Source: Squalus acanthias (lineage: Eukaryota). From it: DNA of 64,000 nt. Numbering within the stretch: the first letter of the stretch is position 1; each line of letters opens with the position of its first letter. The translations under genes were made by a program, and so were the position numbers. The notes beneath the pieces were generated by a model. That model ran no database searches. It worked only from the letters and a program-made list of their open reading frames with translations, and was not told where the DNA came from. The stretch lies in assembly GCA_030390025.1 (NCBI GenBank), contig CM059431.1, positions 135,410,001-135,474,000 of the forward strand, read 5' to 3'. Positions 5,326 to 62,644 of this stretch are shown piece after piece.

Positions 5326-6559
5326 CAATAACCTCAACCACAACTTCCCAATCACCAACACTCATTACCTTCCCTCTGTCACTGACCATCACATCCTCTT
5401 TCCCACAATGCAAAAATAAAAGCCAACACAAAATACACATTCCAATCCAAATTTATAAATTAAATCATGCCATAATGCAAACAAAAATAAAGTAATCACC
5501 CTTGTGCATTCCCTTAGTGCCTTTCCCATGTGCCTTTGCCTGTCCTAGTGCTCCTACGAGGTACTGCCCCAGTGGCTGCAGCATGGCTGGTGGAAGGCTG
5601 CTGACTTTCAGTGGAGAGGGCTGCAGATGTCCTTGGAGGGCGACCTCGAGCAGCTCTGGGCCTAGAAAACCCAGTTGCAGACTGCACCATCTTGGCATGG
5701 GCAGCAGCAGTCTGGGCTGGCTGGCTGACGGGTAACAGCAAGGGCACTTGTGGCGTGGCAGGAGTGGGAGCACAAATGCTGTCTTCCAGAGAGAGGATAG
5801 CAGGTTCGTACTCCATGGAGCCACTGCCACTCTCCTGGGGCAGCGCCTCAGCAATTCAATACTCTGTTGGAGAGCAGCTTGCTGGAGTGCTCTGACACCC
5901 TGGAAGCCCCTTTGAACACTGGTTTCCAGAGCCATGAATGCAGCAATCTGAGCTTCCATGCCAGCAAGCTGAGATTGCATGACAGCAGTCTGAGCTTCCA
6001 CTGCAGCACTCAGACGTTGGGTGGCTGCTGCTTGTGCTGCAATGGAAGCTGTGACATCGGCCATTAGAAGCTGCATCATGGTGGGTTCCACAAGTGTTCT
6101 CATGGAGTTGGCCACCACATCCATGCTGGAAAAGATGGGCTCCAAGTTCTGTGCAAAACCCTGTGCCAAGTTGGTGTCAGACTCTTCAATGCCCCTTGAC
6201 ATTGAATGCAGGCTTTCTGGCAGGCTTTCCAGTGCACCAAGCAGTTGGGTGTGTACACCCAGCAGCCTTCTTCTGTAGCCTGGCCCATCAAAGTCATCAT
6301 CTGAGTCCTCTGCAGCAGAACTAGTGTGCGACCTTGCCCTCCGATGAGCTGGCACCTGCTCTATCCTTTTCCCCTGCCCTGGCTGCAGGTCACTTGTGCC
6401 TGGTGTCTCACCATGTGCAAATCCCGCCTCTATGCTATCCTCTAAATTATGCACAGTGTCAGTATCTGAGCTGGTAGCTGCGAGTGTGAAATTGAGTGAC
6501 GGTGTGTCGTCATCTTCACTGTCTTCTTTCTCTTCCTCCACTGCCTGGGCAGGTAGTAG

Positions 6560-6774
6560 TGTCATAAATCGCAAGTAACAACTCAGGAAGTACTACTGGG
6601 CGGCCAGCTGGGGCGCCGTCCAGGGAGTATAAATACTCAGGCATGGGCCCACCTTGGGCAGAGACAATCTGGAAACAGGAAGCTAGTGACTGCTAACTAG
6701 ACCTCCATGTTTTGTTACAAGTTGATTAAAGCCTTGCTTTATGTTCAAGTGCGTAGTGAGTCTTTATTACGTCA
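6560..6774 (+). repeat. Gypsy 5' LTR
   Basis: tgtcataaatc...attacgtca; TATA-like tataaata at 6628-6635; ATTAAA at 6725-6730. Confidence 0.97.
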
Positions 6775-6874
6775 ATTTAATCAACTTGAAATCGTCTCCA
6801 CGCTTTGGGTGATTCGGAACAACCAGCTGAAACTCGAACCACAGAAGGGAACTAGGGCAAGAAACTGATCCATC

Positions 6875-9800
6875 ATGGAAAAACTCCTTAGACCCGCTCG
6901 TCTCGACCTGGACCCGAATGCACCTGCGGCAGCGAAGGTATGGAAGCATTGGTTTCGTACCTTTAGCAACTTTCTTGAAGAATGTGGGGCGGATGTCCCT
7001 AATAAGTTACGAATGCTTATCAACTATGTGTCTCCTCATGTGTATGACTATATTGAGGACTGTATAGTCTATGACACTGCTATCGAAATCTTACAGCAGC
7101 TATATGTCAAGTCCCCAAATGAAATATTTGCTCGACACCTACTGGCCACAACTCAGCAGCAGCCTGGGGAATCACTCGATGAATTTCTCCAGAAACTTCG
7201 CAGGCTCAGCAAGGATTGTAACCTTAAAGCAGTTACAGCTGAACAGTATCAAGAGGAACGAATCCGCAATTCCTTTATCAATGGGATCGCGTCCCCTTTT
7301 ATACGTCAGCGCCTGCTGGAAAATAAAACCCTCAATTTACGGGCTGCTTATGACCAGGCGTGTTCCTTGGACTTGGCCAAGAAAAATGCAGACACTTATC
7401 TCCCACCACGTGCACGGGCGGCGGCTATCTCCTTTAATGAGTCTTTCGGTAGGTCTCGGGCGGATGCCCCCACTGATGTTGACTCTACTCTAACGGACGA
7501 CGACCCTACCCTAGAGGCCTTCGCTGATGACGACCCCGCCCTAGCAGCATCCTGGCAATCGGGAAGAAAGTGTTTCTTTTGTGGAGGGGCGTGCCATCAC
7601 AGAAAATCTTGCCCGGCTCGTAATGTGACCTGCAATCATTGCAGCAAGAAAGGACACTTTTCCAAGGTATGCCAGTCACGGGCCTCTGCTAACCAGAAAG
7701 GCCGCTCCTCTAAAGTATACCGGTCGAGAGCTCCTGTTAGCTTCACAGCTGCTATCTATGGAGCTGCTCCTCCCCCAAGAATTACTGTTAAGGCTACAGC
7801 TGCCAAAGGGAAAATTGTCCCTCCTCCCATCACAGCTGTTTTTCCCCAAAGTTTGTCCCATGCAGCCACGAAGGTTTCAGTAAATGGGCACACTCTAAGC
7901 GCGCTAATCGACTCCTGCAGCTCTGACAGCTTCATTAGTAAGCGGGCTGTCAACAGGTTAAAACTGCACATTTATCCCTCGGACAGGGAGATTGCAATGG
8001 CTCTGACGACTCTGACCACCAATTCTTCTGGCTTCTGTCTGGTCAACCTCATCCTCAACGGCCGCACGTATCTCTCCACCCGGCTCGGAGTACTCGCAAA
8101 CTTATGCAGCGATGTGCTTCTGGGACAGGACTTCCAGAAGCAGCACAAGAAAATCACTTTTGAGTTTGGAGGGTCAAGGCCGGAGCTTACCATTTCTAAG
8201 GTGCCGTTTTGTGCACTCTCGGCAGCCTTACTCGGTGAACCCTCCCTGTTTGCCAATCTTCCCCCCCGCTGTAAACCCATAGCCACCAAATCGCGGCGCT
8301 TTAGCCAAGACGATCGAGCGTTTATTGAGGCGGAAATCTCTCGCCTTTTAGTCGACGGTATTATCGAGCCATGTTCATCTCCCTGGCGGGCTCAGGTCGT
8401 CATTGTGAGGAATCCCTTAAAACAACATAAAAAACGTCTGTGTATCGATTATTCGCAGACTATTAATCAATATACCGATCTGGATGCCTACCCACTGCCA
8501 CGCATAGATGACATGGTCAACAACCTTGCCAAATACAAGGTATTCTCGACCTTCGATTTAAAAAGCGCGTACCATCAGGTGCCACTGCAAGACTCCGACA
8601 AGAAGTATACGGCCTTTGAGGCCAATGGTCGGCTTTTCCAGTTTCGCCGCCTTCCATTCGGGGTCACCAATGGGGTGGCCGTCTTCCAACGGGCCATGGA
8701 TGGCCTAGTCCGGCAAGAGAACTTGACGGATACCTTTCCGTATTTAGACAATATCACTATTGCCGGTCATGATCAAAAGGAGCATGACGCCAATCTTCAG
8801 AGATTTTTTGACGTACTCCGCCGTCGCCACTTAACGTTAAACGAATCCAAATCGGTGAAGTCGGTGCCATCGGTGAACATTCTTGGCTACTGCGTGGGCA
8901 ACGGTGTTATTAAACCGGACCCAGAGCGACTTCGTCCACTTCAGGAGCTCCCTCCCCCGACGAACCTCGGCTCTCTTCGTCGGGCACTTGGCATGTTTGC
9001 TTATTACGCAAAATGGATACCACACTTCTCCGATAAAATACAGCCCCTGCTCCATGCGAAGTCTTTTCCATTGGAAGCTACGGCTATTTCTGCCTTCAAC
9101 CTCCTCAAACGACAGCTGGAGAAAGCCACGCTTCGCTCCATTGACGAAAATCTTCCTTTTGTGGTCGAATGCGATGCATCGGAGGTGGCGATCTCCGCTA
9201 CCTTGAATCAAGGTGGCCGACCCGTGGCATTCCTATCCAGAACCTTGCAGGGTAGCGAGTTCCATTACCCCCCCGTCGAGAAGGAGGCTACGGCCATCAT
9301 CGAGGCTGTACGCCAATGGGGTCATTTTCTTGCTCGGCGTCATTTTACGCTTATAACTGACCAGCGCTCTGTGGCCTTCATGTTGGATAACCGGAGGCGC
9401 ACGAAAATCAAAAATAATAAAATTCAACTCTGGAGGATGGAGCTGGCTGCCTTTGGATATACTATCTGTTACCGACCCGGCAAACAGAACGTGGCCCCAG
9501 ATACCTTCACACGGGCATTTTGCTCCTCAATGTCAACGTCGACTCTGGCGGATTTGCATATGGACTTGTGCCATCCTGGTGTGACCCGCATGTTGCACTT
9601 TGTGCGCTCCAAAAATCTACCATTTTCAACCGAGGACGTAAAGAAAACATGCTCCTCCTGTAGGATTTGTGCAGAATTGAAACCACAATTCTTTCGCCCA
9701 TCAGATGGCTTACTCATACATGCAATGCAGCCTATGCAGAGGCTCAGCATAGACTTTAAAGGGCCATTGCCTTCGTCGACAAGGAACACCTACCTACTTA

Positions 9801-10816
9801 CGATGGTGGACGAGTATTCACGCTTTCCCTTCGCCTTCCCCTGCCCTAATATGCTTACCTCTACGGTAATTAAATGCCTCGATCAGGTCTTTTCCCTTTG
9901 CGGGACGGCCAATTTTATCCACACTGATCGGGGTCCCTCCTTTATGTCGAGTGAACTTAAAAGTTATCTCTCCCAACGTGGAATCGCCTCAAGTAGGACG
10001 ACACCATATCACCCAATCGGTAACGGAGAGGTTGAACGATACAATGCCATCATCTGGAACGCTGTCCGTCTGGCACTAAGGTCACGCAACCTACCGGACC
10101 AGCAGTGGGAAACGGTGCTCCCCGACGTGTTACACTCTATCAGGTCTCTTCTCTCCACATCTACTAATGTCACGCCTCATGAGCGATTCTTCAAATTCCG
10201 GCGTCGCTCTACACATGGGACGTCTCTACCGTCATGGTTGGTGGCTCCAGGCCCGGTGCTACTCCGGAGGTTCGTCCGGTCTGCCAAAAACGACCCTCTC
10301 GTTGACGAGGTGGAGTTAACGGAGGTAAACCCCACGTATGCGCACATATGGTACCCTGATGGCCGGGAGACCACCGTCTCGCTCCGAGATCTGGCTCCCT
10401 GCCCAACCGGTCACACGGGCCCGAATGATGAAGGATCCCACGACGATGATATCAACACTCCGCACCCCTATGAAAATGACGCCCCGCCTGGGACATCGGG
10501 GGATCTGCCGGCAACGCTACCGGATCAACTCAGGGAGCTGGACGCTCCCCGTAGGATGGCCACCCGAAACCAGGACGCCGGACAATCTCCAGCCACGACC
10601 CGGGATGAGGCCAGCTCAGCACCTGTGGGGACCCGCACCCGGAGTCATGATATTCCCAGTCCTCCACAGGATGATCAAGATGACGCGGACTCTACTGACT
10701 TACCGGTATGGGCCAAGCGACCCAGGGACCAGGACACGGTCCGGGGAGACGTGCCTTCCGGTCACAAGCAGAGAGCTAAACGTCTACGGCTATTTCTGGT
10801 CCGCCTAGTCCGTTAA
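6875..10816 (+). CDS. gag-pol: Gypsy Gag-Pol polyprotein (Gag with 2 Zn knuckles, protease, RT, RNase H, integrase), 1313 aa
   Basis: CFFCGGACHHRKSC and CNHCSKKGHFSKVC; LIDSCS protease; RLCIDY, FDLKSAYHQV, LPFG, YLDN RT; CDAS...EKEA...TDQ RNase H; HHCC and D-D-E (IDFKGP, HTDRG, EVERYN) integrase, in Gypsy domain order. Confidence 0.97.
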   Translation: MEKLLRPARLDLDPNAPAAAKVWKHWFRTFSNFLEECGADVPNKLRMLINYVSPHVYDYIEDCIVYDTAIEILQQLYVKSPNEIFARHLLATTQQQPGESLDEFLQKLRRLSKDCNLKAVTAEQYQEERIRNSFINGIASPFIRQRLLENKTLNLRAAYDQACSLDLAKKNADTYLPPRARAAAISFNESFGRSRADAPTDVDSTLTDDDPTLEAFADDDPALAASWQSGRKCFFCGGACHHRKSCPARNVTCNHCSKKGHFSKVCQSRASANQKGRSSKVYRSRAPVSFTAAIYGAAPPPRITVKATAAKGKIVPPPITAVFPQSLSHAATKVSVNGHTLSALIDSCSSDSFISKRAVNRLKLHIYPSDREIAMALTTLTTNSSGFCLVNLILNGRTYLSTRLGVLANLCSDVLLGQDFQKQHKKITFEFGGSRPELTISKVPFCALSAALLGEPSLFANLPPRCKPIATKSRRFSQDDRAFIEAEISRLLVDGIIEPCSSPWRAQVVIVRNPLKQHKKRLCIDYSQTINQYTDLDAYPLPRIDDMVNNLAKYKVFSTFDLKSAYHQVPLQDSDKKYTAFEANGRLFQFRRLPFGVTNGVAVFQRAMDGLVRQENLTDTFPYLDNITIAGHDQKEHDANLQRFFDVLRRRHLTLNESKSVKSVPSVNILGYCVGNGVIKPDPERLRPLQELPPPTNLGSLRRALGMFAYYAKWIPHFSDKIQPLLHAKSFPLEATAISAFNLLKRQLEKATLRSIDENLPFVVECDASEVAISATLNQGGRPVAFLSRTLQGSEFHYPPVEKEATAIIEAVRQWGHFLARRHFTLITDQRSVAFMLDNRRRTKIKNNKIQLWRMELAAFGYTICYRPGKQNVAPDTFTRAFCSSMSTSTLADLHMDLCHPGVTRMLHFVRSKNLPFSTEDVKKTCSSCRICAELKPQFFRPSDGLLIHAMQPMQRLSIDFKGPLPSSTRNTYLLTMVDEYSRFPFAFPCPNMLTSTVIKCLDQVFSLCGTANFIHTDRGPSFMSSELKSYLSQRGIASSRTTPYHPIGNGEVERYNAIIWNAVRLALRSRNLPDQQWETVLPDVLHSIRSLLSTSTNVTPHERFFKFRRRSTHGTSLPSWLVAPGPVLLRRFVRSAKNDPLVDEVELTEVNPTYAHIWYPDGRETTVSLRDLAPCPTGHTGPNDEGSHDDDINTPHPYENDAPPGTSGDLPATLPDQLRELDAPRRMATRNQDAGQSPATTRDEASSAPVGTRTRSHDIPSPPQDDQDDADSTDLPVWAKRPRDQDTVRGDVPSGHKQRAKRLRLFLVRLVR

Positions 10817-10854
10817 AGGAAGACTGGACTTCCAAACCTTTTAGGGAGGAAGAA

Positions 10855-11069
10855 TGTCATAAATCGCAAGTAACAACTCAGGAAGTACTACTGGGCGGCC
10901 AGCTGGGGCGCCGTCCAGGGAGTATAAATACTCAGGCATGGGCCCACCTTGGGCAGAGACAATCTGGAAACAGGAAGCTAGTGACTGCTAACTAGACCTC
11001 CATGGTTTGTTACAAGTTGATTAAAGCCTTGCTTTATGTTCAAGTGCGTAGTGAGTCTTTATTACGTCA
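10855..11069 (+). repeat. Gypsy 3' LTR
   Basis: Identical to 6560-6774 except ccatgTtttg vs ccatgGtttg. Confidence 0.97.
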
Positions 11070-11289
11070 AGTAGTTCTTGGATAACTGTAAGGAAAAAGC
11101 GACTAGGGAAGTGTTGTGGTGAGGGGAGAGGAGAAAGCAGGAAGTGCATGCTTTGGCGCCTTTCACCATAGGGAAGCCTGCCATGCGTGTGAAACCTGGT
11201 CCTGCTTTGCTTTGTCCATAGAGAAGGAGATTTATGTGTTTCTCCAGGTGTAGAGAGCCTCGGTGATAGATCGGTGCGATGCGAACTGG

Positions 11290-12289: not shown

Positions 12290-14216
12290 TAATTACCCTT
12301 GTGCAATCCCTTAGTGCCTGTCGTTCGAGTGCCTTTTCCTACTCTAGTGCTCCTATGCAGTGTTCCCCCAGTGTCTGCAGCATGGCTGGTGGAAGGCTGC
12401 TGTGTTTCCATGGGGGAGACAATGGATGGCCTTGCAGAACAACCTGAACCAGCTGTGGACCGAGACAATCCAGCTGTACACTGCACCACTTCGGCACGGG
12501 TGAAAGCAGCCTTGGCTGGCTGACCGGCAACAGCAAGAGCAATGGTGGACTGGCAGTGGTGGGAGCAGGAATGCTGTCATCCTGAGAGAGGACCGCAGGT
12601 TCTTGCTCCACAGACCCACTGCCACTCCCCCGGGGTGGCCCCTCAGCATTGCTAACCATCTGTTGGAGGACACCCTGCAAGGCCCCTTTCGACACTCGTA
12701 AACCCAGCGACGATGGCAGCAGCCTGAGCTTGGGTGGCAGCAAGCTGAGCCTGCAGGAGAGCAGTCTGTGCCTCCACTGCAGCAGTGAGACATTGGGTCA
12801 CTTCCGCCTGTGCTGCAATGGAAGCTGCAACATCGCTCATCACACCCAGCATCACGGCTGGATCGACAAGGTCTCTCCTGGAGTTGTCCATCATTTCCAG
12901 CCTGGAAATCATGGGCTCCAAGCTCTGTGCAAAGCCCCGTCCATTGTTGGAGCAGGACTCCTCCATGCTCCTTGACATTGACAAGAGGCTCTCTAGCAGG
13001 CTTGCCATTGCACCAAGCATTTCGGTGTGCATGGCCATCACCCTTCTTCTGAAGGCCGCCCCATCGAGGTCATCATCTGAGTCCTGTGTAGCAGGACTTG
13101 TGTGCGAACTCGCCCTCCGGGGAGCTTCCCCCTGAGCTACCCTTTCCCTCTGGCCTTGCTGCAGCCCACTCATGCCCGGTGCCTCACCCTGTGCAGATCC
13201 CGCCTCTATACTACCCTCTACATTCCGCGCAGTACCAGTTTCTGAGCTGCTGTCTACGAGTGTCAGATGCAGTGATGATGTGTCTTCTTCTTCTCCTTCA
13301 ATTGCCTCCACAGCATGATGGACAGACTGGCCTGCTGGCAGTTCTTGGGTATCTGAAAGCAGAAAGGCACAAGAGTCGGCTAGCGGTGAGGAGAAGGGAG
13401 AAAGCAAGATATCCATGCATGCACCATCAGCAGCTTGTAAGTGAGAAGAGATTGTGGGATGAGGGGGAAGTGGGATGTAAGAAGAAGGATTAGGAATGAG
13501 CATACCGTCATTGTCAGCAAGAGCTTCAACTTTGCCCGTTGCCACGGCATTGGTGACTGCCTCTCAAATGATGTCGAGCATGGACTCCTCCAGTTGGCTC
13601 AGGTTCTGTACAGTGGCTTGGTCGTCTCCTGTCTGCCATTGTTCCCAGCAGTTATGAGCCACCTTTGACTGCAAGAGAAAGAGAAGGGTGTGAGTGAGTG
13701 TAGTGTAATGTGTTTAGGTCTTGTTCCTGCCATAGTTGAATAGCTGTCAGTGTGTGTGATGTGGGTGTGAGTGTTGCAGCAGTGGTTAGGTTGTGAGGGT
13801 GAAGTGAAGCTATGATTGTGAGTTATGAGTGGTGATCGGTGAGGCTTGTGGTGCAGATGGTGGGAATTGGCATTTGCTAAAGTCTTCACTCACCTTGACA
13901 TAAGAACATAAGAAATAGGAGCAGGAGTAGGCCATTCGGCCCCTCGAGCCTGCTCCGCCATTCAATAAGATCATGGCTTGACCTGCCGTGTAAGGTCATT
14001 AAACTTCTTTCAGCACTGGATCCATGTTCTTGGCATGACGCTGGTGGCTGTGATGTAGGTAGCGATCTCCTGCCAGAGCCTTCTACTTTTAGCCTTCGAT
14101 GGATTCCTGCCACCCTGCGGGAACAGGACAGCCTGCCTTCTTTCAACTGCCACTACCAAGGCCTCGAGTGCAGCATCTGAAAACCTTCTTGCTCTCTCTC
14201 TGGATTGTTGTGCTAT
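12290..14216 (-). pseudogene. Harbinger ORF2, Myb/SANT-like DNA-binding protein
   Basis: Exon 1 RARRFSDAALEALV...LFP...WQEIA...RTWIQC*KKFNDL (Myb/SANT-like); later exons are homologous to 5494-6559. Confidence 0.82.
13900..13976 (-). mobile_element. 77-bp 5'-truncated CR1 tail insertion
   Basis: (ataagaac)n tail plus CR1 3'UTR, flanked by TSD CTTGAC (13894-13899 / 13977-13982). Confidence 0.9.
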
Positions 14217-26065: not shown

Positions 26066-28633
26066 GAAATACCAAGGGGCAGAAAACGTTAGTGGGAGTG
26101 GTATACAGACCCCCAAACAGTAATGCGGAGGTTGGGGATGACATTAAAAAGGGAAATTAGAGAAGCGTGCAATAATGGCACAGCAGTTATCATGGGTGAC
26201 TTTAATTTACATATAGATTGGGCTAACCAAATTAGTAAAAGTACTGTGGAGGAGGAATTCCTGGAGTGTATACGGGATGGTTTCCTGGACCAATATGTCG
26301 AGGAACCAACTAGAGATCAGGCCATCTTAGACTGGGTATTATGTAATGAGAAAGGATTAATTAACAATCTTGTTGTGCGAGGCCCCTTGGGTCAGAGCGA
26401 TCATAATATGATAGAATTCTTCATTAAAATGGAGAGTGAAGTAGTTGACTCGGAGACTAGGGTCCTGAATTTAAATAAAGGAAACTACGATGGTATGAGG
26501 CGCGAGTTGGGTAGGATTGATTGGGGAATGTTACTCAAAGGGCTGACGGTGGATAGGCAATGGCAAACATTCAAAGATCGCATGGATGAACTGCAGAATT
26601 TGTTCATCCCTGTTTGGCATAAAAATAAAACAAAAAAGGTGACTCAACCATGGCTAACAAAGGAAATTAGGACTAGCATAAGATCCAAGGAGAGGACATA
26701 TAAATTGGCCAGAAAAAGCAGTAAACCTGAGGATTGGGAGCAGTTTAGGATTCAGCAAAGGAGGACAAAGGGATTAATTAAGAGGGGGAAAATAGAGTAT
26801 GAGAGTAAATTTGCAGGGAACATAGAAACTGACTGTAAAAGCTTTTATAGATATGTGAAGAGAAAAAGATTGGTGAAGTCAAACGTAGGTCCCTTGCAGT
26901 CAGAATCAGGGGAATTTATAATGGGGAACAAAGAAATGGCAGAGCAATTAAATACATACTTTGGTTCTGTCTTCACAAAGGAGTACATAAATAACCTCCC
27001 AGAGATGTCGGGGAACATAGGGTCTAATGAGAGGGAGGAACTGAAAGAAATCAGTATTTGTAGGGAAATGGTGTTAGCGAAATTGATGGGATTGAAGGCC
27101 GATAAATCCCCAGGGCCTGAAAATCTACATCCTAGGGTACTTAAGGAAGTGGCCCTAGAAATAGTAGATGCATTGCTGGTCATCTACCAAAATTCGATAG
27201 ATTCTGGAACAGTACCCATGGATTGGAGGGTAGCTAATGTTACCCCACTATTCAAAAATGGTGGTAGAGAGAAAACGGGGAATTATAGACCGATAAGCCT
27301 GACATCGGTAGTGGGAAAAATGCTGGAGTCCATTATAAAAGATGTAATAGCAGAGCACTTGGAAAACAGTGACAGGATCGGACAAAGCCAACATGGATTT
27401 ACAAAAGGTAAATCATGCTTCACTAATCTACTGGAATTTTTTGAAGATGTAACTGGTAAAATAGATAAGGGAGAACCAGTGGATGTGGTGTATTTGGACT
27501 TTCAGAAGGCTTTTGATAAGGTCCCGCATAACAGATTAGCATGTAAAGTTAAGGCACATGGGATTGGGGGCAAGGTATTGACTTGGATAGAGAACTGGTT
27601 GGCAGACAGAAGGCAAAGAGTTGGAATAAACGCGTCTTTTTCCGAGTGGCAGGCAGTGACTAGTGGGGTACCGCAGGGATCGGTCCTAGGACCCCAGCTG
27701 TTCACAATATACATTAATGATCTAGACGAGGGAACGAGATGTAATATCTCCAAGTTTGCAGATGACACAAAGCTGGGTGGGCGTGTGTGCTGTGAGGAGG
27801 ATGCCGAAAAACTGCAGTATGATTTGGACAGGTTGTGTGATTGGGCAGAATCATGGCAGATGCATTATAATGTGGATAAATGTGAGGTTATCCACTTTGG
27901 TGTCAAAAACGGGAAGGCAGATTATTATCTGAACGGCAATAGATTGGGAGAAGGGGAAGTGCAACGAGACCTGGGTGTCCTTGTGCACCAGTCGCCGAAG
28001 GTAAGCATGCAGTTGCAGCAGGCGGTTAAGAAGGCAAATGGTATGTTGGCCTTCGTAGCGAGAAGGTTCGAATACAGGAACAAGAATGTCTTGCTGCAGT
28101 TGTACAGGGCCTTGGTGAGACCACACCTTGAGTATTGTGTGCAGTTTTGGTCGCCTTATCTGAGGAAGGATGTTCTTGCCATGGAGGGAGTGCAGCGAAG
28201 ATTCACCAGACTGATACCTGGGATGGCAGGAATGACGTATGAGGAGAGATTGGGTTCATTGAAACTTATAAAATTCTAACAGGACTAGACAGACTAGATG
28301 CAGGAAGTATGTTCCCGATGGTCGGGGAGTCCAGAACCAGGGGTCACAGTCTAAAGAAAAGGGGCAAGCCATTTAGGACAGAGATGAGGATGAATTTCTT
28401 CACCCAGAGAGTGGTGAACCTGTGGAATTCTCTACCACAGAAGGCAGTGGAGGTCAATTCATTAAATATATTCAAGAAGGAGTTAGATATATTTCTTAAG
28501 GCTAAAGGGATATGGGGAAAAGGCAGGGACAGGGTACTGAATTTGGATGATCAGCCATGATCTCATTGAATGGCGGAGCAGGCTCGAGGGGCCGAATGGC
28601 CTACTCCTGCTCCTATCTTCTATGTTTCTATGT
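26066..28633 (+). mobile_element. CR1 LINE, 5'-truncated, with most of ORF2
   Basis: Starts in the endonuclease (VGVVYRPP), runs through RT and ends in the (tttctatg)n tail; small deletion near 28255. Confidence 0.96.
26123..28279 (+). pseudogene. CR1 ORF2 (partial endonuclease plus reverse transcriptase), 718-aa open frame
   Basis: MGDFN, SDH, KSPGP, NYRPISLTS, LDFQKAFDKVPH, GVPQGSVLGP, FADD; N-terminally truncated and C-terminally frameshifted. Confidence 0.93.
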
Positions 28634-46870: not shown

Positions 46871-48424
46871 TCAGAAGTCTGGGTTGTATGGGGCTGTTGC
46901 TACCTTCGCGTGTGAGGTCATGAGAGACCGCATGGCTCCTAACATGGACTCTATCGCATCGGGATGGATAGGCACACCAGCTCCTCTCTCAGAGACAGGC
47001 GTTTGGGCTCGGACTGCGGGAGCTTTTTCCCTGGAGTCCTTCCAGGGATTCCTACAGTTTTTGCGCCAGTGACCTGCCTTCCCGCACCCGTAACAAACAC
47101 TATTGGTTTGTGGGGCGCGATTTCCCTCCTGATGCCACTCTTTCTGAGCCGGAGCTGCGGGCTTTGCTTCATGCACTTTTCCCTTAAGGGGACGCGCTCC
47201 CGTGCTTCTAGTGTTCCGATACCCTATGGTGAGGTGACTCAGGACAGACTCCTCCGTTGTCTCGGGGTTGGTGGGATCAAACCACGCTCTGGCCTGCTCC
47301 CTGACGGCTGGCAAGCTGTTGGCCACTATGCACCTGAGCCAATGAGCTTTCCCGGCACCGTCCAGGTAGCGGCGCTCTGGCGCACCTGGGCATCTACGCT
47401 GGTATACTGGCCACAGTCTTTCGGCGAAAACCCGTGGGGGTTCTCCCTCTATCTGCACGGTCTGACCCAGTCTGACGAACGGACCTTCGTCATCCACCCC
47501 TAACACTTCTTGGACCTCGTCTCGTAAATCCCCATAGCCCTTAGCTCCCCTCTTGGTCTCGTCGGAGAGACACTGAAGGATTGAGCTATCTAAAGAGAAC
47601 AGCAACATCTTGGTCTTTTCCTCGTTGTCGCAGCCATTAATCGCTGCGGTCTGTTCTACTTCTCTAAAATGCACGGAAGGGTCTCCTGACTCGGACAGCT
47701 TCCGGACATGGCTGATCATTGCCCTCAGCTGCTGTGAGCTGTGGGGCACTACAAGTTGGTTCAGGATGTCCCCGTCTTCCCCATTGTTCCCATTCGGGCC
47801 TCGCTTATGACCTCGGACCGGACACATCGGTCCCGGTCTCGACACTACCTCCGGGGATTGTCCTACCTCGGGAACCTTCTTCTCTATTTCCACCACTTCC
47901 TCCCTTACCCAGGTTTCTGTATAGCTGGGTGGCGCGGAGGGCTTGGTGGTAGATACCACATCTGCTTTTCCCGGTAGGGATTTTGGGAATTCCCTACCTA
48001 CCTGTGGCTGGCTCGCTGATGGGCTGATGAGACACACCAAGCCGTTTGCCTTATTCAGGGCCTCTCTCAGGTTCTCTATCTCCCTCTGGCAAACACTGTG
48101 GTCGGCTCCCTCATGCCTATCCTCGAGAGCCATCTTGTATGCCACCCTAACTCCCCTCAAACTTTCTTCTTGGGCCTTTATCTGGTTAGCTAGGCGGATA
48201 CACCGTTCTTTAATCCTTCCCTCACTTAATTTTGCTTCCGTGACCTGACATTCTAAGTAATCGATCCTAGCCTCGTGGTGGTTGGCTATTATTTGGCGTT
48301 CCTGATGCAACGCATTCAGTGATACAATCAGTCTCTGTCCTCCCGTAACCTTTTCCTCCATCTCTGTTTCTAATTCTCTGATCTGAGCTGCCATGACCTG
48401 GTCCGAAAGTTGGACTTGCTTCTT
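46871..48424 (-). CDS. gag: Retroviral Gag (N-terminally truncated; open frame continuous with the Penelope RT fragment up to 49210)
   Basis: Coiled coil, PSAPPSY late domains, QIEGEPPRVFAERL MHR-like segment, CYGCGKAGHWRKNC knuckle, TGA stop. Confidence 0.88.
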   Translation of the reverse strand, partial: KKQVQLSDQVMAAQIRELETEMEEKVTGGQRLIVSLNALHQERQIIANHHEARIDYLECQVTEAKLSEGRIKERCIRLANQIKAQEESLRGVRVAYKMALEDRHEGADHSVCQREIENLREALNKANGLVCLISPSASQPQVGREFPKSLPGKADVVSTTKPSAPPSYTETWVREEVVEIEKKVPEVGQSPEVVSRPGPMCPVRGHKRGPNGNNGEDGDILNQLVVPHSSQQLRAMISHVRKLSESGDPSVHFREVEQTAAINGCDNEEKTKMLLFSLDSSILQCLSDETKRGAKGYGDLRDEVQEVLGVDDEGPFVRLGQTVQIEGEPPRVFAERLWPVYQRRCPGAPERRYLDGAGKAHWLRCIVANSLPAVREQARAWFDPTNPETTEESVLSHLTIGYRNTRSTGARPLKGKVHEAKPAAPAQKEWHQEGNRAPQTNSVCYGCGKAGHWRKNCRNPWKDSREKAPAVRAQTPVSERGAGVPIHPDAIESMLGAMRSLMTSHAKVATAPYNPDF

Positions 48425-50210
48425 GTTGTTCAATGTGAGAACAAGTTCAGCCAGGTGGAGGAGGGTGGTGGTGGATGGGGTCTGGTTGGGCCTCTGTTCA
48501 AGGAAGAAGCGGAGCGACTTCAGGCCATCCTGGTGGGGGATGGAGGTATAGAGGGATTGTACGCCCATAGTGAAAAGGAGGCGGTCAGGGCCAGGAAATT
48601 GGAAACTGTTAAAGTGGCGGAGGGCGTCGGAAGAGTCGCGGATGTAGGTGGGAAGAGACTGGACAAGGGGAGAAAAAATAGAGTCGAGATAGGAAGAGAT
48701 AAGTTCCGTGGGGCAAGTACAGGCTGAAACGATGGGTCTACCAGGGCAGTCCTGTTTGTGGATCTTGGGAAGGAGGTAGAAGCGGGCTGTGCGGGGTTGG
48801 GGAACTATGAGGTTGGCGGCCGTGGGGGGAAGATCTCCAGAGGAGATGAGGTCAGTGACAGTCTTGGAAACGGTGGCTTGATGTTCGGTCGTGGGGTTAT
48901 GGTCCAGGCAGAGGTAGGAGGTGTCGGAGAGTTGGCGTTCAGCTTCCGCTAGGTAGAGGTCGGTTCGCCAAACAACAAAAGCACCACCCTTGTCAGCAGG
49001 TTTAATGACAATGTCGGGGTTGGATCTGAGAGAATGGAGTGCTGCAAGTTCAGAGGGAGGAAGGTTGGAGTGAGTGAGGGGAGCAGAGAAATGGAGACGG
49101 CCGATGTCACGCCGGCAGTTTGCAATGAAAAGATCTAGAGAGGGTAAGAGGCCAGAGGGAGGGGTCCAGGTAGAACGAGAATTCTGAAAGCGGGAGAAAA
49201 GGTCAGCCATGCGGGGGGAAGACTCCTGGCCAAAGAAGTGGGCACGGAGGCGAAGGCGGCGGAAAAAGAGCTCAGCATCGTGCCGAGCTCGAAATTCATT
49301 GAGGTGGGGGCGTAAGGGGATGAAGCTCAGGCCTTTGCTAAGGACTGATCGTGCGGGGTCAGAGAGGGGAAGGTCAGAGGGGATCGTGAAAACGCGGCAG
49401 GGGGTGAGATTGGGAGAAGGGATGGGTCAGAGGAAAGTGAAGGGGAAGAAGGTTCCGGAGGTGCGTTGGTGTCCAAGAGTTGTTGAAGCTTGCGATCCTT
49501 GCCACCTGAAAGGAAGAAAAAAAGTTTTTTGTTAACGCGCCAGATGAGGCGAAGGATGAAATGGAACTGCGAATCAGGACGGCTTTGAGATAGAGTGAGT
49601 CGGTGCTGCTGAAGAGAGAGGTCGAGAGTGTTCATGTGGCATTGCATGGCATTCAGCGTGGATCTCAGGATGCGGCGAGAGCAGTGGTTCGAGGAACGCT
49701 GAATATCTTGGAGATATCTGTAGTCCTGGGTGGATCCAAAACACGAAGGGTGAATTTCAGTTGGAATCCACGTGGAGTAAGTCGGAGCCGGAGACAGTTG
49801 CTGAGGAAAGATATGTGGCTGTGAAAGCGAGTTTTGGTAGATCCTGATCAAACACGAGAAGGAGACAGAAAGCAATGAAGATGAACAAGGTAAAAGAGAC
49901 AAACGGAAATCCCGTCGAAGAGAAGAGCAGAACTTCTTCAAGGTGGGCATTCCTGGAAGAGAGGTGGCAGTGAATAAACACTAATACAAAAAGAAAATAC
50001 TGCAGATGCTGGAAATCTGAAATAAAAACAGAAAATGCTGGAAATACTCAGCAGGCCAGGCAGCATCTGTGGAGAGAGAAACAGAGTTAACGTTTCAGGT
50101 CGATGACCTTTCGTCAGAACTGGAAAAAAGCAGGAAATGGAACAGATTTTTAAGCAAGTGTAGTGGCTGGGAAATGGGGGAGGGGATGAAAGAACAAAAG
50201 GGAAGGCCTA
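48425..50210 (-). mobile_element. Penelope-like element, 5' half (pseudo-LTR, N-terminal region, RT N-terminal part)
   Basis: Highly similar to 60826-61933 over the shared part; IKPADKGG, YLLPKIHK, GRPIVS; breaks at LTLNN. Confidence 0.93.
50085..50121 (-). ncRNA. Minimal type I hammerhead ribozyme (Penelope pLTR)
   Basis: agtt-CUGACGA-a-aggtc/atc/gacct-GAAA-cgtt-aact: core boxes, stem II, palindromic stem III, stem I agtt/aact. Confidence 0.85.
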
Positions 50211-53559: not shown

Positions 53560-55143
53560 TTAAGGGGTTTAGCAGCTTTAACAGTGGATAAATCCCCAGG
53601 CCCGGATGAAATGTGTCCCAGGCTGTTAAGCGAAGCAAAAGAGGAAATAGCAGAGGCCCTGACCATCATTTTCTAATCTGCTCTGGCTTCAGGTGTGGTG
53701 CCGGAGGACTGGAGGACTGCTAATGTGGTACCCTTGTTTAAAAAGGGAGAAAAGGATAGACGAGTAATTACAGGCCAGTCAGCCTAACCTCGGTGGTGGG
53801 AAAATTATTGGAAAGAATTCTGAAGGACAGGATAAATCTTAATTTAGAAAGACACGGATTAATCAAGGATAGTCAGCACGGATTTGTTAAGGGAAGGTCG
53901 TGTCTGACAAACTTGATTGAATTTTTTGAGGAGGTAACAAGGAGGGTAGATGAAGGTAGTGCATTTGATGTAGTGTATATGGACTTTAGCAAGGCTTTTG
54001 ATAAGATTCCACATGGCAGACTGGTCACGAAGTTAAAAACCCATGGGATCCAGGGCAAAGTGTCAAGTTGGATTCAAAACTGGCTCGGAGACAGGAAGCA
54101 GAGGGTAATGGTTGATGGGTGTTTTTGTGACTGGAAGGCTGTTTCCAGTGGGGTTCCGCAGGGCTCAGTACTAGGTCCCTTGCTTTTTGTGGTATATATC
54201 AATGATCTAGACTTGAATATAGGGGGTATGATTAAGAAGTTTGCAGATGATACTAAAATCGGCTGTGTGGTTGATACTGAAGAAGGAAGCTGTAAACTGC
54301 AGGAAGATATCAATAAATTGGTCAGGTGGGCAGAACAGTGGCAAATGGAATTCAATCCGGAGAAGTGTGAGGTAATGCATTTGGGGAGGGCTAACAAGGA
54401 AAGGGAATGCACATTAAATGGTAGGACACGGAGTAGTGTAGAGGAACAAAGGGACCTTGGAGTGCATGTCCACAGATCCCTGAAGGTAGCAGGCCAGGTA
54501 GATAAGGTGGTTAAGAAGGCATACGGAATGCTTGACTTTATTAGCCGTGGCATAGAATACAAGAGCAGGGGGGTTATGCTTCAACTGTATAAAACACAAG
54601 TTAGGCCTCAGCAGTTCTGGTCACCACATTACAGGAAAGATGTGATTGCACTAGAGAGGGTACAGAGGAGATTTACAAGGATGTTGCCAGGAGTAGAGAA
54701 TCTTAGCTATGAGGAAAGATTGGATAGGTTGGGTTTGTTTTCCTTGGAACAGAGGAGGCTGAGGGGAGACCTTATTGAGGTGTATAAAATTATGAGGGGC
54801 CTAGATAAAGTGGATAGAAAGGACCTATTTCCCTTAGCAGAGGGGTCAAAAACCAGGGGCCACAGATTTAAAGTAATTGGGGGAAGGTTTAGAGGGTATT
54901 TGAGGGGAAATTTCTTCACCCAGAGGGTTGTGAGGGTCTGGAACTCACTGCCTGAAAGGGTGGTAGAGGCAGAAACCCTAACCACATTTAAAAAGTACTT
55001 GGATGTGCACTTGGGATGCTGTAACCTGCAGGTCTATGGACCTAGAGCTGGGAAGTGGGATTAGGCTGGATAGCTCTTTGTTGGCCGGCGCGGACACGAT
55101 GGGCCGAAATGGCCTCCTTCCGTGCTGTAACTTTGTATGATTC
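53560..55143 (+). mobile_element. CR1 LINE, 5'-truncated (423-aa RT frame 53793-55064)
   Basis: MDFSKAFDKIPH, GVPQGSVLGP, FADD, CR1 C-terminus and tail. Confidence 0.95.
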
Positions 55144-59603: not shown

Positions 59604-61271
59604 TTATGATCTAAAATTGTTGAACTCGATATTGAGTCCAGAGGGCTGTAGCGTGCCTAAACGAAAGATGAGGTGCTGTTCCTCGAGCTTACGCTGCGCT
59701 TCCGTGAAACAGTGTAATAGGCCGAGGACGGTGAGGTCAGAGTGGGAGTGAAGCGGTGAATTAAAGTGACAGGCCACCGGGAGCTCGGGGTCCCCCTTAC
59801 GGACTGAACGGAGGTGTTCCGCAAAGCGGTCACCCAATCTGCGTTTGGTCTCCCCAATGTAGAGGAGACCACATCGTGAGCAGCGAATACAGTATACTAA
59901 ATTGCAGGAAGTACAAGTAAATCGCTGTTTCACCTGGAAGGGGTGTTTGGGGCCCTGGACAGTGGGAAGAGGGGAGGTGTAAGGGCATGTGTTGCATCTC
60001 CTGCGCGTGCACGGGAAGGTGCCGGGCGAAGGGGAAGGGGTGCTGGGGGTGGTAGAGGAGTGGACTAGGGTGTCGCGGAGGGAGCGGTCCCTGCGGAATG
60101 CTGAAAGGGGAGGTGAGGGGAAGATGTGTTTGGTGGTGGGATCACGCTGGAGGTGGCGGAAATGGCGGAGGATGATCCGTTGAATGTGGAGGCTGGTGGG
60201 GTGAAAGGTGAGGACAAGGGGAACCCTATCGTGGTTCCGGGAGGGAGGGGCAGGGGTGAGGGCAGAAGTGCGGGAGATAGAACGGACACGGTCGAGGGCC
60301 GTGTCGACCACGGTAGAGGGGAATCCTCGGTTGAGGAAAAAGGAAGACATGTCGGAAGCACTGGTATGGAAGGTGGCATCATCAGAGCAGATGCGGCGGA
60401 GACGGAGAAACTGGGAGAATGGAATAGAGTCCTTACAGGAGGCGGGGTGGGAGGAAGTGTAGTCCAGGTAGCTGTGGGAGTCAGTGGGCTTGTAGTGAAT
60501 GTTAGTCAAAAACCTATCCCCAGAGATGGAGATGGAGAAGTCGAGGAAGGGAAGGGAAGAGTCGGAGATGGACCATGTGAAGGTGAGGGAAGGGTGGAAA
60601 TTGGAAGTATAGTGAATGAAATGTTCTAGTTCAGGGCGAGAGCAGGAGACGGCACCGATACAGTCATCAATGTACCGGAAAAAGAGGTGAGGGAGGGGAC
60701 CCGAGTAGGACTGGAACAAAGAGTGTTCCACATATCCCACGAAAAGGCAGGCATAGCTAGGACCCATGCGGGTACCCATAGCAACACCTTTAATTTGGAG
60801 GAAATGGGTAGAGTCAAAGGAGAAGTTGTTCAATGTGAGAACAAGTTCAGCCAGGCGGAGGAGGGTGGTGGTGGATGGGGACTGGTTGGGCCTCTGTTCA
60901 AGGAAGAAGCGGAGCGCCCTCAGGCCATCCTGGTGGGGAATGGAGGTGTAGAGGGATTGTACGTCCATAGTGAAGAGGAGACGGTTGGGGCCGGGAAACT
61001 GGAAACTGTTAAAATGGCGGAGGGCATCGGAAGAGTCGCGGATGTAGTTGGGAAGAGACTGGACAAGGGGAGAAAAAATAGAGTCGAGATAGGAAGAGAT
61101 AAGTTCCGTGGGGCAAGAACAGGCTGAAACGATGGGTCTACCGGGGCAGTCCTGTTTGTGGATCTTGGGAAGGAGGTAGAAGCGGGCTGTGCGCGGTTGG
61201 GGAACTATGAGGTTGGCGGCCGTGGGGGGAAGATCTCCAGAGGAGATGAGGTCAGTGACGGTCTTGGACAC
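59604..61271 (-). CDS. Penelope RT plus GIY-YIG endonuclease (555-aa open frame, N-terminally incomplete)
   Basis: TMDVQSLYT, GVAMG, RYIDD, FLD, linker CTRRRCNTC, VYCIRC..C.LLYIGET.R.L..RF.EH, E, GLN. Confidence 0.92.
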   Translation of the reverse strand: MSKTVTDLISSGDLPPTAANLIVPQPRTARFYLLPKIHKQDCPGRPIVSACSCPTELISSYLDSIFSPLVQSLPNYIRDSSDALRHFNSFQFPGPNRLLFTMDVQSLYTSIPHQDGLRALRFFLEQRPNQSPSTTTLLRLAELVLTLNNFSFDSTHFLQIKGVAMGTRMGPSYACLFVGYVEHSLFQSYSGPLPHLFFRYIDDCIGAVSCSRPELEHFIHYTSNFHPSLTFTWSISDSSLPFLDFSISISGDRFLTNIHYKPTDSHSYLDYTSSHPASCKDSIPFSQFLRLRRICSDDATFHTSASDMSSFFLNRGFPSTVVDTALDRVRSISRTSALTPAPPSRNHDRVPLVLTFHPTSLHIQRIILRHFRHLQRDPTTKHIFPSPPLSAFRRDRSLRDTLVHSSTTPSTPSPSPGTFPCTRRRCNTCPYTSPLPTVQGPKHPFQVKQRFTCTSCNLVYCIRCSRCGLLYIGETKRRLGDRFAEHLRSVRKGDPELPVACHFNSPLHSHSDLTVLGLLHCFTEAQRKLEEQHLIFRLGTLQPSGLNIEFNNFRS

Positions 61272-62644
61272 GGTGGCTTGATGTTCAGTAGTGGGGTCAT
61301 GGTCCAGGTGGAGGTAGGAGGAGGTGTCAGAGAGTTGGCGTTCAACTTCCGCTAGGTAGAGGTCGGTTCGCTAAACAACAACAGCGCCACCCTTGTCAGC
61401 AGGTTTAATGACAATGTCAGGATTGGATCGGAGAGAATGGAGTGCTGCAAGTTCAGAGGGAGGTAGGTTGGAGTGAGTGAGGGGAGCAGAGAAATTGAGC
61501 TGGCCGATGTCACGGCAGCAGTTAGCAATGAAAAGATCTAGAGAGGGTAAGAGGCCAGAGGGAGGGGTCCAGGTGGAACGAGAATTCTGAAAGCAGGAGA
61601 AAGGGTCAGCCGTGTGGGGGGAAGACTCCTGGCCAGAGAAGTGGGCACGGAGACGGAGGCGGCGGAAAAAGAGCTCAGCATCGTGCCGAGCTCAAAATTC
61701 ATTGAGATGGGGGCGTAAGGGGATGAAGGTCAGGCCTTTGCTGAGGACTGATCGTTCGGAGTCAGAGAGGGGAAGGTCAGAGGGGATAGTGAAAACGCGG
61801 CAGGGGGTGAGATTGGGAGAAGGGGGGTCAGAGGAAAGTGAAGGGGAAGAAGGTTCCGGAGGGGCGTTAGTGTCCAAGAGTTGTTGAAGCTTGCGATCCT
61901 TGACATCGGAAAGGAAGAAGAAAAGTTTTTTGTTGTCTTTTCTTAAGTATGGACACCAAAACTGTATGCAGTATTCCAGATGCGGTCTCACCAATACCTT
62001 ATATAACTGCAGCAATACCTCCCTGTTTTTATAATCTATCCCCTAGCAATAAAAGCCAACATTCCGTTGGCCTTCTTGATCACCTGCTGCACCTGCATAC
62101 TAACTTTTTGATTTTCTTGCACTAGGACCCCCAGATCCCTTTGTACTGCAGTACTTTCCAGTTTCTCGCCATTAAGATAATAACTTGCTCTCTGATTTTT
62201 CCTGCCAAAAAACAGCGCAGTACCCTCTACAGGGCATCTGGGATGTAAGTGAACAGGATAAGCAACTGTGTATCTCCTTAACCAATCAGATTGAAGGATC
62301 ATGAAATTAACAGCGCAAGGTCTGTGTGAGTTAGAATGGTGAATTCAATGTCAAATCAGGTACAGAAAGAGAAATAAAGAGAGCGAAAGAAAGATTGGAT
62401 TAAGGAGAGAGAGAAAAAAGAAACAAAAAGATAAAGTAAAAAAAAAATTGTTTTAATTGTTTAAAAAAAAACTCAAACCACAATTAAAACCTGAAGGAAT
62501 GAGACTTTACAATTGTAACAGTTAATTTTCAATGGCAGAGAGGTTGACTGGCAGTAATTAACACTTATCACATCATTAAAAGTGTTTTTGATGAGTAATG
62601 ACTAGAATAAACTTCTTGTTGCGAGTTTAGTTCTTATCTACTGT

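What the first reader, a model, noticed from the sequence alone, without database searches (positions are those of the whole stretch)
6718..6788. Gypsy element has no tRNA PBS; the PBS position is complementary to its own LTR poly(A) signal
Seen: after the 5' LTR end (6774) there is no TGG. Instead tttaatcaacttg (6776-6788) is the perfect 13-nt reverse complement of caagttgattaaa (6718-6730), which contains the ATTAAA signal and recurs in the 3' LTR. Established: Tf1/sushi-type elements self-prime using the first ~11 nt of the transcript. Here the partner lies ~85 nt downstream of the TATA-like box, so it is probably not the RNA 5' end. Inference: a variant self-priming mode, using an internal fold-back or the RNA 3' end, that would also mask the 5' LTR poly(A) signal.
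Basis: partly seen in the sequence, partly recalled or inferred. Interest (0 to 1): 0.74.

Follow-up and report, generated by a model that had tools for sequence, protein, structure and literature searches.

The report
Self-priming animal Gypsy retrotransposon clade
This young jumping gene and 29 distant relatives carry, where a borrowed tRNA normally docks, letters that pair exactly with a 13-letter piece of their own end-repeat, and a mutation hot spot right behind that site suggests that this piece of their own RNA likely starts the DNA copy.

Summary
Confirmed. The element (6560-11069) is a young Ty3/Gypsy retrotransposon without a chromodomain. Its primer site (6776-6788) is the exact complement of 6718-6730 in its own LTR. 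The pairing holds in 30 of 40 related families, with 27 different 13-mers; on a Gag tree both arms change together (68/69/70 steps). The LTR arm ends at AAA|RCC, usually before a small hairpin. Added here: the base right after the primer site (6789) mutates recurrently and independently of lineage (111 of about 606 copies genome-wide; 27 of 147 versus 2 of 1911 inside the site). That fits plus-strand DNA ending after copying an exact 13-nt primer. Self-priming is therefore likely (about 0.9). Which copy of the arm primes, and where transcription starts, stay open: a TATA box points to 6660, but three footprint tests failed, and the C6659G variant proved inherited. The hexamer is canonical in only 20 of 30 families, so poly(A) masking is secondary. 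It works like Tf1 but is not a Tf1/sushi member. This scan reported the same clade before on other DNA; my literature searches found no description.

The parts
6555..6559 (+). left target-site duplication (AGTAG)
   Evidence: identical to 11070-11074
6560..6774 (+). 5' LTR, 215 bp, TG...CA
   Evidence: one mismatch to the 3' LTR
6628..6635 (+). TATA-like box after GC-rich boxes; predicts a start near the C-A step 6659/6660 (inferred, unmapped)
   Evidence: sequence; textbook TATA-to-start spacing (recalled)
6672..6713 (+). predicted hairpin upstream of the arm; site of a recurrent fold-back junction in aberrant insertions
   Evidence: folds; 6 genome-wide junction hits
6718..6730 (+). LTR arm = candidate 13-nt self-primer, ending in ATTAAA
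   Evidence: pair probabilities 0.52-1.0
6731..6752 (+). GCC.. and small hairpin directly 3' of the arm; candidate cut site 6730|6731
   Evidence: RCC in 25 of 30 families; stem of 4 bp or more starting at this base in 24 of 30; weak in this copy
6751..6772 (+). predicted U5 hairpin next to the primer site
   Evidence: pair probabilities 0.82-0.98
6776..6788 (+). primer-binding site, complementary to the LTR arm, 1 nt after the LTR end; no TGG
   Evidence: 2 differences in 1911 bases over 147 copies
6789..6790 (+). recurrent mutation hot spot = inferred 3' end of plus-strand strong-stop DNA
6875..10816 (+). single gag-PR-RT-RH-IN reading frame, 1313 aa, two CCHC knuckles, RT motif YLDN, no chromodomain
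10843..10854 (+). polypurine tract (12 nt) behind a T4 run
10855..11069 (+). 3' LTR; holds a second copy of the arm at 11013-11025
11070..11074 (+). right target-site duplication (AGTAG)

Best explanation
The element's primer site pairs exactly with a 13-nt stretch of its own LTR, and that stretch likely serves as the primer for reverse transcription in place of a tRNA, probably folding back from inside the 5' R region and being cut free at AAA|GCC. Steps: (1) SHOWN: complementarity, clade-wide covariation over positions 1-13, fixed 3' edge, 1-nt spacer after the LTR. (2) INFERRED: transcription starts near 6660; arm and primer site pair over a 45-nt loop holding two hairpins. (3) INFERRED from Tf1: the element's RNase H cuts at 6730|6731 and the new 3'-OH primes minus-strand DNA through U5; this jumps to the 3' R stretch between the hexamer and the poly(A) site. 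(4) SHOWN as a footprint, mechanism INFERRED: plus-strand DNA copies exactly 13 nt of primer, often gains an untemplated base, and so mutates 6789. The primer must end at 6718 by then, by a second cut, by trimming, or because RNase H, 11-13 nt behind the polymerase in Ty3-type enzymes, releases it. (5) INFERRED side effect: the 5' ATTAAA is hidden in the helix. Self-priming in any geometry about 0.9; this geometry about 0.47.
For: 30 of 40 families have a stem of 12 bp or more (Watson-Crick plus at most 2 G-U), against 0.25% of 1200 shuffles. Own arm pairs 12.8 of 13, another family's arm 8.4; 27 different 13-mers. On a Gag tree (32-91% identity), positions 4-12 need 68 changes in the arm, 69 in the site, 70 jointly; coupling fades at 14 and is lost by 15. 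The predicted LTR end matches the direct-repeat end exactly in 6 families and within 1 nt in 2 more. Copy L071 carries a change in both LTR arms and the matching change in its primer site. Hot spot: 111 non-A against 487 AT and 8 A-nonT genome-wide; of the first 100 listed, GT 83, CT 14, GC 2, GA 1, none T. 45 variant copies of 165 need 38 tree steps (shuffled 40), whereas markers with 26 or more variant copies need 3-18; r2 with neighbours at most 0.06. The same +14 place is polymorphic (6 T, 4 G) in a second family from another genome. For an internal arm: TATA plus C-A step at +31/32; pyrimidine at arm position 13 in 26 of 30 and 14 in 27 of 30, with a YR start step there in only 4 and 2 of 30; no C excess after the site (PBS +14: C 1 of 30). 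Ty3 RT cuts 11-12 nt and CaMV RT 10-14 nt from the polymerase site (PMC11363490, passages). Tf1 RT adds untemplated bases (PMC3185545, passage).
Against: No RNA end was mapped. No hot spot marks the predicted minus-strand end at 6730 (4 variants among about 1800 LTRs, 3 on one contig). TATAWA occurs within 200 nt upstream in only 9 of 30 families, at 42-174 nt from the arm's 3' end; in L054 (42-44 nt) it would put the start at the arm itself. No family-wide pairing between sequence upstream of the arm and the leader (mean rank 0.51 and 0.49). An internal arm needs a second event to end the primer at 6718. The absence of T at 6789 may reflect poor extension of T-T mismatches. 10 of 40 families fail the 12-bp cut-off: 2 have 9 bp with the same motif, 1 has 12 bp with a 2-nt spacer, 7 have 7 bp or less. 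The best copy per family was scored, while the null shuffled one copy. Covariation would also arise from templating of the site by the primer, so it does not measure selection alone.
Confidence: 0.47

Rival explanations
1. Tf1-type self-priming: the replicating RNA starts at or next to 6718, its first 13 nt are the primer, and R is short (arm plus 10-30 nt).
For: The primer demonstrably ends at 6718 when copied. Coupled pairing stops at 13-14 across families. Arm positions 8-11 are conserved as A/G/T/T (19, 25, 21, 25 of 30), which resembles an initiator element (recalled). In L054 a TATA lies at the right distance. The precedent is experimental (PMC10085805, PMC4600332, PMC5341516, passages).
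Against: Here the only TATA lies 90 nt upstream and nothing TATA-like is at -30 of 6718. The arm's 5' edge is a pyrimidine in 26-27 of 30 families. An initiator start at position 11 cannot explain perfect pairing at position 12 (30 of 30, four pair types). The added base is mostly G, not the C that a cap would template (recalled).
Confidence: 0.27
2. The primer is the arm's 3' R copy or comes from the second packaged RNA. A cut at AAA|GCC removes the tail, minus-strand DNA runs to the cap near 6660, and RNase H later leaves 13 nt attached.
For: It explains a primer ending at 6718 without a second special cut, gives about 60 nt for strand transfer, and fits the lack of a hot spot at 6730. Two of the variants shared by both LTRs fall at 6659-6660 (the C6659G lineage and one doublet).
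Against: C6659G (96 LTRs) is one inherited lineage: all 22 full-length carriers share the 3' marker at 10786 and nested LTR markers, and 21 of 24 share one internal haplotype. 6660 shows only 5 variants, like the control (6). The 5' arm, 45 nt away, is predicted to occupy the site with probability near 1.
Confidence: 0.17
3. The helix only silences the 5' poly(A) signal or aids packaging; the primer is something else.
For: 20 of 30 arms end in AATAAA or ATTAAA. Hiding a 5' poly(A) signal in a stem is known from retroviruses (recalled).
Against: The partner always begins 1 nt after the LTR end, where a primer must end. 10 of 30 arms lack a canonical hexamer yet keep the pairing. The hot spot marks the helix end. 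No alternative primer site is present (no TGG in 30 of 30).
Confidence: 0.05
4. A host tRNA fragment or other small RNA primes (the arm consensus loosely recalls a tRNA D-loop; recalled, not tested).
For: Host tRNAs could not be screened: none in the window, no credible tRNA in the fetched loci.
Against: A primer differing from the site would write its letters into new copies, as happens at +14; the site shows 2 differences in 1911 bases. 27 different 13-mers follow their own LTR. No Rfam match over the region.
Confidence: 0.03

Closest known systems
Tf1/Tf2 (Schizosaccharomyces pombe), Tj1, Tosmo1-3 and the Tf1/sushi group of chromoviruses
   Same: No tRNA site; primer site complementary to the element's own 5' LTR; helix flanked by further stems; RNase H cut at the primer's 3' end expected (PMC10085805, PMC4600332, PMC5341516: passages).
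   Different: No chromodomain. 13-14 nt arm ending in a poly(A)-like hexamer plus RCC. The arm is probably not the RNA 5' end. The flanking stems are hairpins inside the loop, not Tf1's pairings between primer-site neighbours and the LTR. RT motif mostly YxDN. Hosts are animals (cnidarians, crustaceans, molluscs, tunicates by source names).
Plant Tcn1 (Ty3/gypsy) and TAR (Ty1/copia, e.g. Houba) lineages with predicted self-priming
   Same: Self-priming predicted from at least 10 bp of complementarity between the post-LTR sequence and the LTR (PMC6317226, passages).
   Different: Other lineages and hosts. The passages read give no covariation, hexamer link or primer-end footprint.
Fungal GalEa Copia 'Conserved Hairpin Site'; Dictyostelium Skipper polypyrimidine site
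   Same: tRNA-less primer position, unknown priming (PMC5445492, PMC5006619: passages).
   Different: There the hairpin lies after the LTR or no LTR complement exists; here the partner is inside the LTR.
Mag lineage / MolGy clades of animal Gypsy elements
   Same: Compact single-frame animal Gypsy with a double CCHC knuckle (108 of 121 homologues); resemblance to Mag is recalled. PMC6238403 (passages) lists unnamed mollusc clades.
   Different: The clade's RT word VTNGV was absent from the supplements searched, so no named reference could be matched; placement untested.

Membership tests
Ty3/Gypsy (Metaviridae) | domain order PR-RT-RH-IN | tested here: met
   Pfam positions 333-420, 527-672, 737-860, 888-1047
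Ty3/Gypsy (Metaviridae) | TG...CA LTRs, polypurine tract, 4-6 bp target duplication | tested here: met
Ty3/Gypsy (Metaviridae) | RT-RH closest to Ty3 among solved structures | tested here: met
   4ol8 and 7q5b best, E about 1e-46; caulimovirus 2e-31; retroviruses 1e-19 or weaker
tRNA-primed LTR elements | TGG-starting site complementary to a tRNA 3' end | tested here: not met
   no TGG within 6 nt of the LTR end in 30 of 30 families
tRNA-primed LTR elements | match to a host tRNA half or fragment | tested here: inconclusive
   host tRNA set not obtained; indirect test against it: 2 of 1911 differences in the site
Tf1/sushi group | chromodomain at the integrase C-terminus | tested here: not met
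   no chromo family at E<=0.1; tail is low-complexity
Tf1/sushi group | nests among chromoviruses in an RT tree | not tested
   no reference sequences were available to the tools
Tf1/sushi group | primer site complementary to own 5' LTR | tested here: met
Tf1/sushi group | self-primer is the first nucleotides of the mRNA | tested here: inconclusive
   primer ends at 6718 when copied, but TATA predicts 6660; footprints at 6659, 6660, 6730 uninformative
Tf1/sushi group | three-duplex 'pretzel' with primer-site neighbours paired to LTR sequence downstream of the primer | tested here: inconclusive
   folds give arm helix plus hairpins inside the loop; a U5 hairpin adjoins the site in this copy; Tf1's exact pairings not searched family-wide
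Tf1/sushi group | RNase H of RT cuts the RNA duplex to free the primer | not testable with these tools
   needs biochemistry
Kuafuorterviruses | RT motif IADD/VADD/LADD, 5-6 kb | tested here: not met
   YLDN, 4.5 kb; definition from PMC11673190 parts 1-2 of 3
Mag lineage | RT/RH phylogeny with Mag, SURL, CFG1 | not tested
   no references on hand; only the recalled double knuckle was counted

The most novel reading that the evidence does not exclude
A widespread animal Gypsy clade evolved tRNA-free priming independently of Tf1. Its primer is not the RNA's first nucleotides but a 13-nt piece excised from inside R, or from the RNA's 3' end, at the poly(A) hexamer, sized like its polypurine primer by the polymerase-RNase H spacing and used by an RT that naturally carries YxDN.
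Probability: 0.55. Interest if true: 0.75.

Novelty: new variant of a known kind. Interest (0 to 1): 0.6.

Why it matters
Self-priming is proven only for fission-yeast Tf1 and predicted mainly for its chromoviral relatives. A separate, large animal clade doing it would show that tRNA independence arose again, or is old, and that these elements escape control by 3' tRNA fragments (inference). If the primer is internal or comes from the 3' end, it is a priming geometry not described in the papers I could search. The +14 hot spot gives a way to read primer length from genome copies alone.

Tried and rejected
1) C6659G as a cap-templated footprint of a start at 6660: 96 G, 3 T, 0 A against 1706 C, control site 6 variants. 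Rejected as evidence because it is one inherited lineage. 2) Hot spots at 6730 and 6660: none. 3) Constant TATA-arm distance: none. 4) Pairing upstream of the arm with the leader: a 5-bp helix is predicted in this copy (6661-6665 with 6794-6798, p about 0.98) but not family-wide. 5) LTR intron: acceptor-like motif in 2 of 27 families against 0.19 expected; not pursued. 6) Sequencing runs: no RNA holder listed. Four contig-only runs could not show a start or end, and no poly(A) loose end was among those shown (7 not shown). 7) Viral contigs and phages: no relatives. 8) A search of G000 with a distant Gag returned only this family. 9) Whole-leader folding energy is unremarkable (z -0.2); the signal is the local helix. 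10) Kuafuorterviruses rejected. [quoted passage not shown] Literature searches; none listed a paper on this clade's priming.

Full report
THE ELEMENT. Window 6560-11069 is a complete LTR retrotransposon: 215-bp LTRs with one mismatch, TG...CA ends, a 5-bp target duplication and a 12-nt polypurine tract. [quoted passage not shown] Ty3 RT is the closest solved structure. The family is young and large in the 3.7-Gb host genome: the 150 Gag hits scored are 97-100% identical, exact patterns count about 1800 LTRs and about 600 primer-site copies, and 20 of 64 LTR pairs are identical. Named homologues come from cnidarians, crustaceans, molluscs and tunicates. That the host is a cartilaginous fish is taken from earlier notes and recalled repeat types; I did not test it.

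One base after the LTR end, 6776-6788 is the exact complement of 6718-6730; none of 3000 LTR shuffles reaches 13 bp. Folding gives the helix pair probabilities of 0.52-1.0 whether the RNA starts at 6660 or 6718, with a weak hairpin after the arm and a 9-bp U5 hairpin before the site.

COVARIATION. A Gag alignment fetched 80 metagenome and 6 genome-bin loci. Of these 86, 84 had at least 70 nt upstream; with the window they form 40 families at under 85% Gag DNA identity. Scoring the best copy per family, 30 of 40 have a stem of 12-20 bp starting 1 nt after a CA, against 0.25% of 1200 dinucleotide shuffles. Of the 10 others, two have 9 bp with the same motif, one has 12 bp with a 2-nt spacer, and seven have 7 bp or less, some with short or decayed flanks. 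The CA matches the LTR end found from direct repeats exactly in 6 families and within 1 nt in 2. The 30 arms comprise 27 different 13-mers; own pairs average 12.8 of 13, cross-family pairs 8.4. On a Gag tree, positions 4-12 need 68 steps in the arm, 69 in the site and 70 jointly; coupling weakens at 14 and is gone by 15. The loop varies from 24 to 68 nt. The arm's 3' edge is fixed: 13 end in ATTAAA, 7 in AATAAA, 10 in other A-rich words, and 25 of 30 are followed by RCC. That RCC opens a stem of 4 bp or more in 24 of 30 families (mean 4.3 against 2.8; Wilcoxon p about 1e-6), though only weakly in this copy. Copy L071 has a change in both LTR arms and the matching change in its site. No family has TGG.

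A FOOTPRINT OF THE PRIMER. The base right after the site, 6789, is non-A in 111 copies genome-wide, against 487 AT and 8 A-nonT; among the first 100 listed are GT 83, CT 14, GC 2, GA 1 and no T, while the next two places do not vary in 100 listed. In 147 copies not chosen for this site, 27 differ at 6789 against 2 of 1911 bases inside the site. The variants are not a subfamily: r2 with all 16 markers is at most 0.06, and 45 variant copies of 165 (which include loci fetched for being non-A) need 38 steps on a leave-one-out tree, like shuffled labels (40), whereas markers with 26 or more variant copies need 3-18. Rarer sites, mostly CpG, also look shuffled, but 6789 is not CpG and is far more frequent. 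A second family in another genome is polymorphic at the same +14 place (6 T, 4 G of 10); there G is also the complement of the base upstream of the arm, so that case is ambiguous. My reading (inference): plus-strand strong-stop DNA copies the primer, stops after 13 nt and often gains an untemplated purine, as Tf1 RT does in vitro (PMC3185545, passage). A primer differing from the site, such as a wobble-paired tRNA piece, would overwrite the site itself, and it does not. Ty3 RT cuts 11-12 nt and CaMV RT 10-14 nt behind the polymerase site (PMC11363490, passages), close to both the 13-nt arm and the 12-nt polypurine tract.

WHAT STAYS OPEN. The footprint fixes the primer's length, not its origin. 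For a start upstream: TATAAATA at 6628 after GC-rich boxes with a C-A step at 6659/6660, and a pyrimidine at the arm's 5' edge in 26-27 of 30 families. Against: TATAWA is present in only 9 of 30 families, at scattered distances, and in one fits a start at the arm; the arm's middle resembles an initiator (recalled). I looked for the minus-strand end three ways. C6659G looked like a cap-templated base (96 LTRs, many paired; control 6), but all 22 full-length carriers share the nearest 3' marker and nested LTR markers, so it is one lineage. 6660 and 6730 show 5 and 4 variants. I put the local 5' fold-back at 0.47, a Tf1-type start at 0.27 and a 3' or trans copy at 0.17.

COMPARISON. It works like Tf1, whose self-primer is the mRNA 5' end held in a three-duplex structure (PMC10085805, PMC4600332, PMC5341516; passages). 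It is not a Tf1/sushi member: no chromodomain, and tree placement was not tested. Predicted self-priming in plant Tcn1 and TAR (PMC6317226, passages) and the tRNA-less GalEa and Skipper sites (PMC5445492, PMC5006619, passages) concern other lineages. Kuafuorterviruses differ in motif and size (PMC11673190, parts 1-2 of 3). PMC3601003, PMC6934838, PMC4402516, PMC6238403 and PMC13524379 were seen as passages and PMC2148107 as abstract; none of these describes this site. Ten searches found no paper on it, but Repbase Reports and most subscription journals lie outside the library. This scan noted the same clade several times on other DNA; those notes are not independent support.

VERDICT. Real, strongly conserved, and very probably a self-priming site in a non-chromoviral animal Gypsy clade: a new variant of a known kind. 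The poly(A)-masking part and the non-5'-end geometry are plausible but unproven. Interest 0.6.

Noticed in passing
window 6875-10816, RT motif; homologues P0001-P0121: The RT active-site motif is YLDN in 103 of 103 hits in family loci and YxDN in 78 of 108 homologues where the motif was found (13 of 121 unparsed). In Ty1 the same Asp-to-Asn change abolishes transposition and is partly rescued by RNase H mutations (PMC2148107, abstract). YxDN also occurs in Bel/Pao and HEART RTs.
   Followed up: partly
L317, L318, L321, L322 (G000); also L319/L323, L320/L324: 266-bp palindromic insertions: LTR start to 6712, then an inverted copy back to the LTR start, with 5-bp target duplications in 4 of 6 junction hits, on both 6659 alleles. 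One more sits in a rearranged element. They look like recurrent template switches at the 6672-6713 hairpin, integrated by two U3 ends.
   Followed up: partly
G000:C4:938041/942336, C5:93134932/93139218, L299: Tandem copies one unit apart that appear to share an LTR; L299 is a deleted tandem with three LTRs.
   Followed up: no
G000, whole family: Young, large family: about 1800 LTRs and about 600 internal-bearing copies by exact patterns; 20 of 64 LTR pairs identical, median divergence 0.7%; mosaic haplotypes point to frequent recombination.
   Followed up: partly
L057-L064, L123: A family from another record, 58% identical in Gag, has the very same 13-mer as the window's element.
   Followed up: no
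L131-L136: Six GTDB bacterial genome bins contain this animal retrotransposon, probably host DNA in the bins.
   Followed up: no
window 5465-6592 and 12329-13563: The element interrupts a repeat with long minus-strand frames and a second copy 75-76% identical downstream; no Pfam match.
   Followed up: partly
window 26093-28279, 53760-55064, 59604-61370, 46871-49426: LINE-type RT fragments, an RT with a weak GIY-YIG match (Penelope-like), and a long frame with a zinc knuckle.
   Followed up: no
window 6625-6656 in runs X1, X3, X5, X10: Contigs hold a sister LTR matching the TATA region with 2 differences in 32 letters and diverging beside it.
   Followed up: no
L094, L105: Splice-acceptor-like motifs upstream of the arm in 2 of 27 families (0.19 expected).
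   Followed up: no
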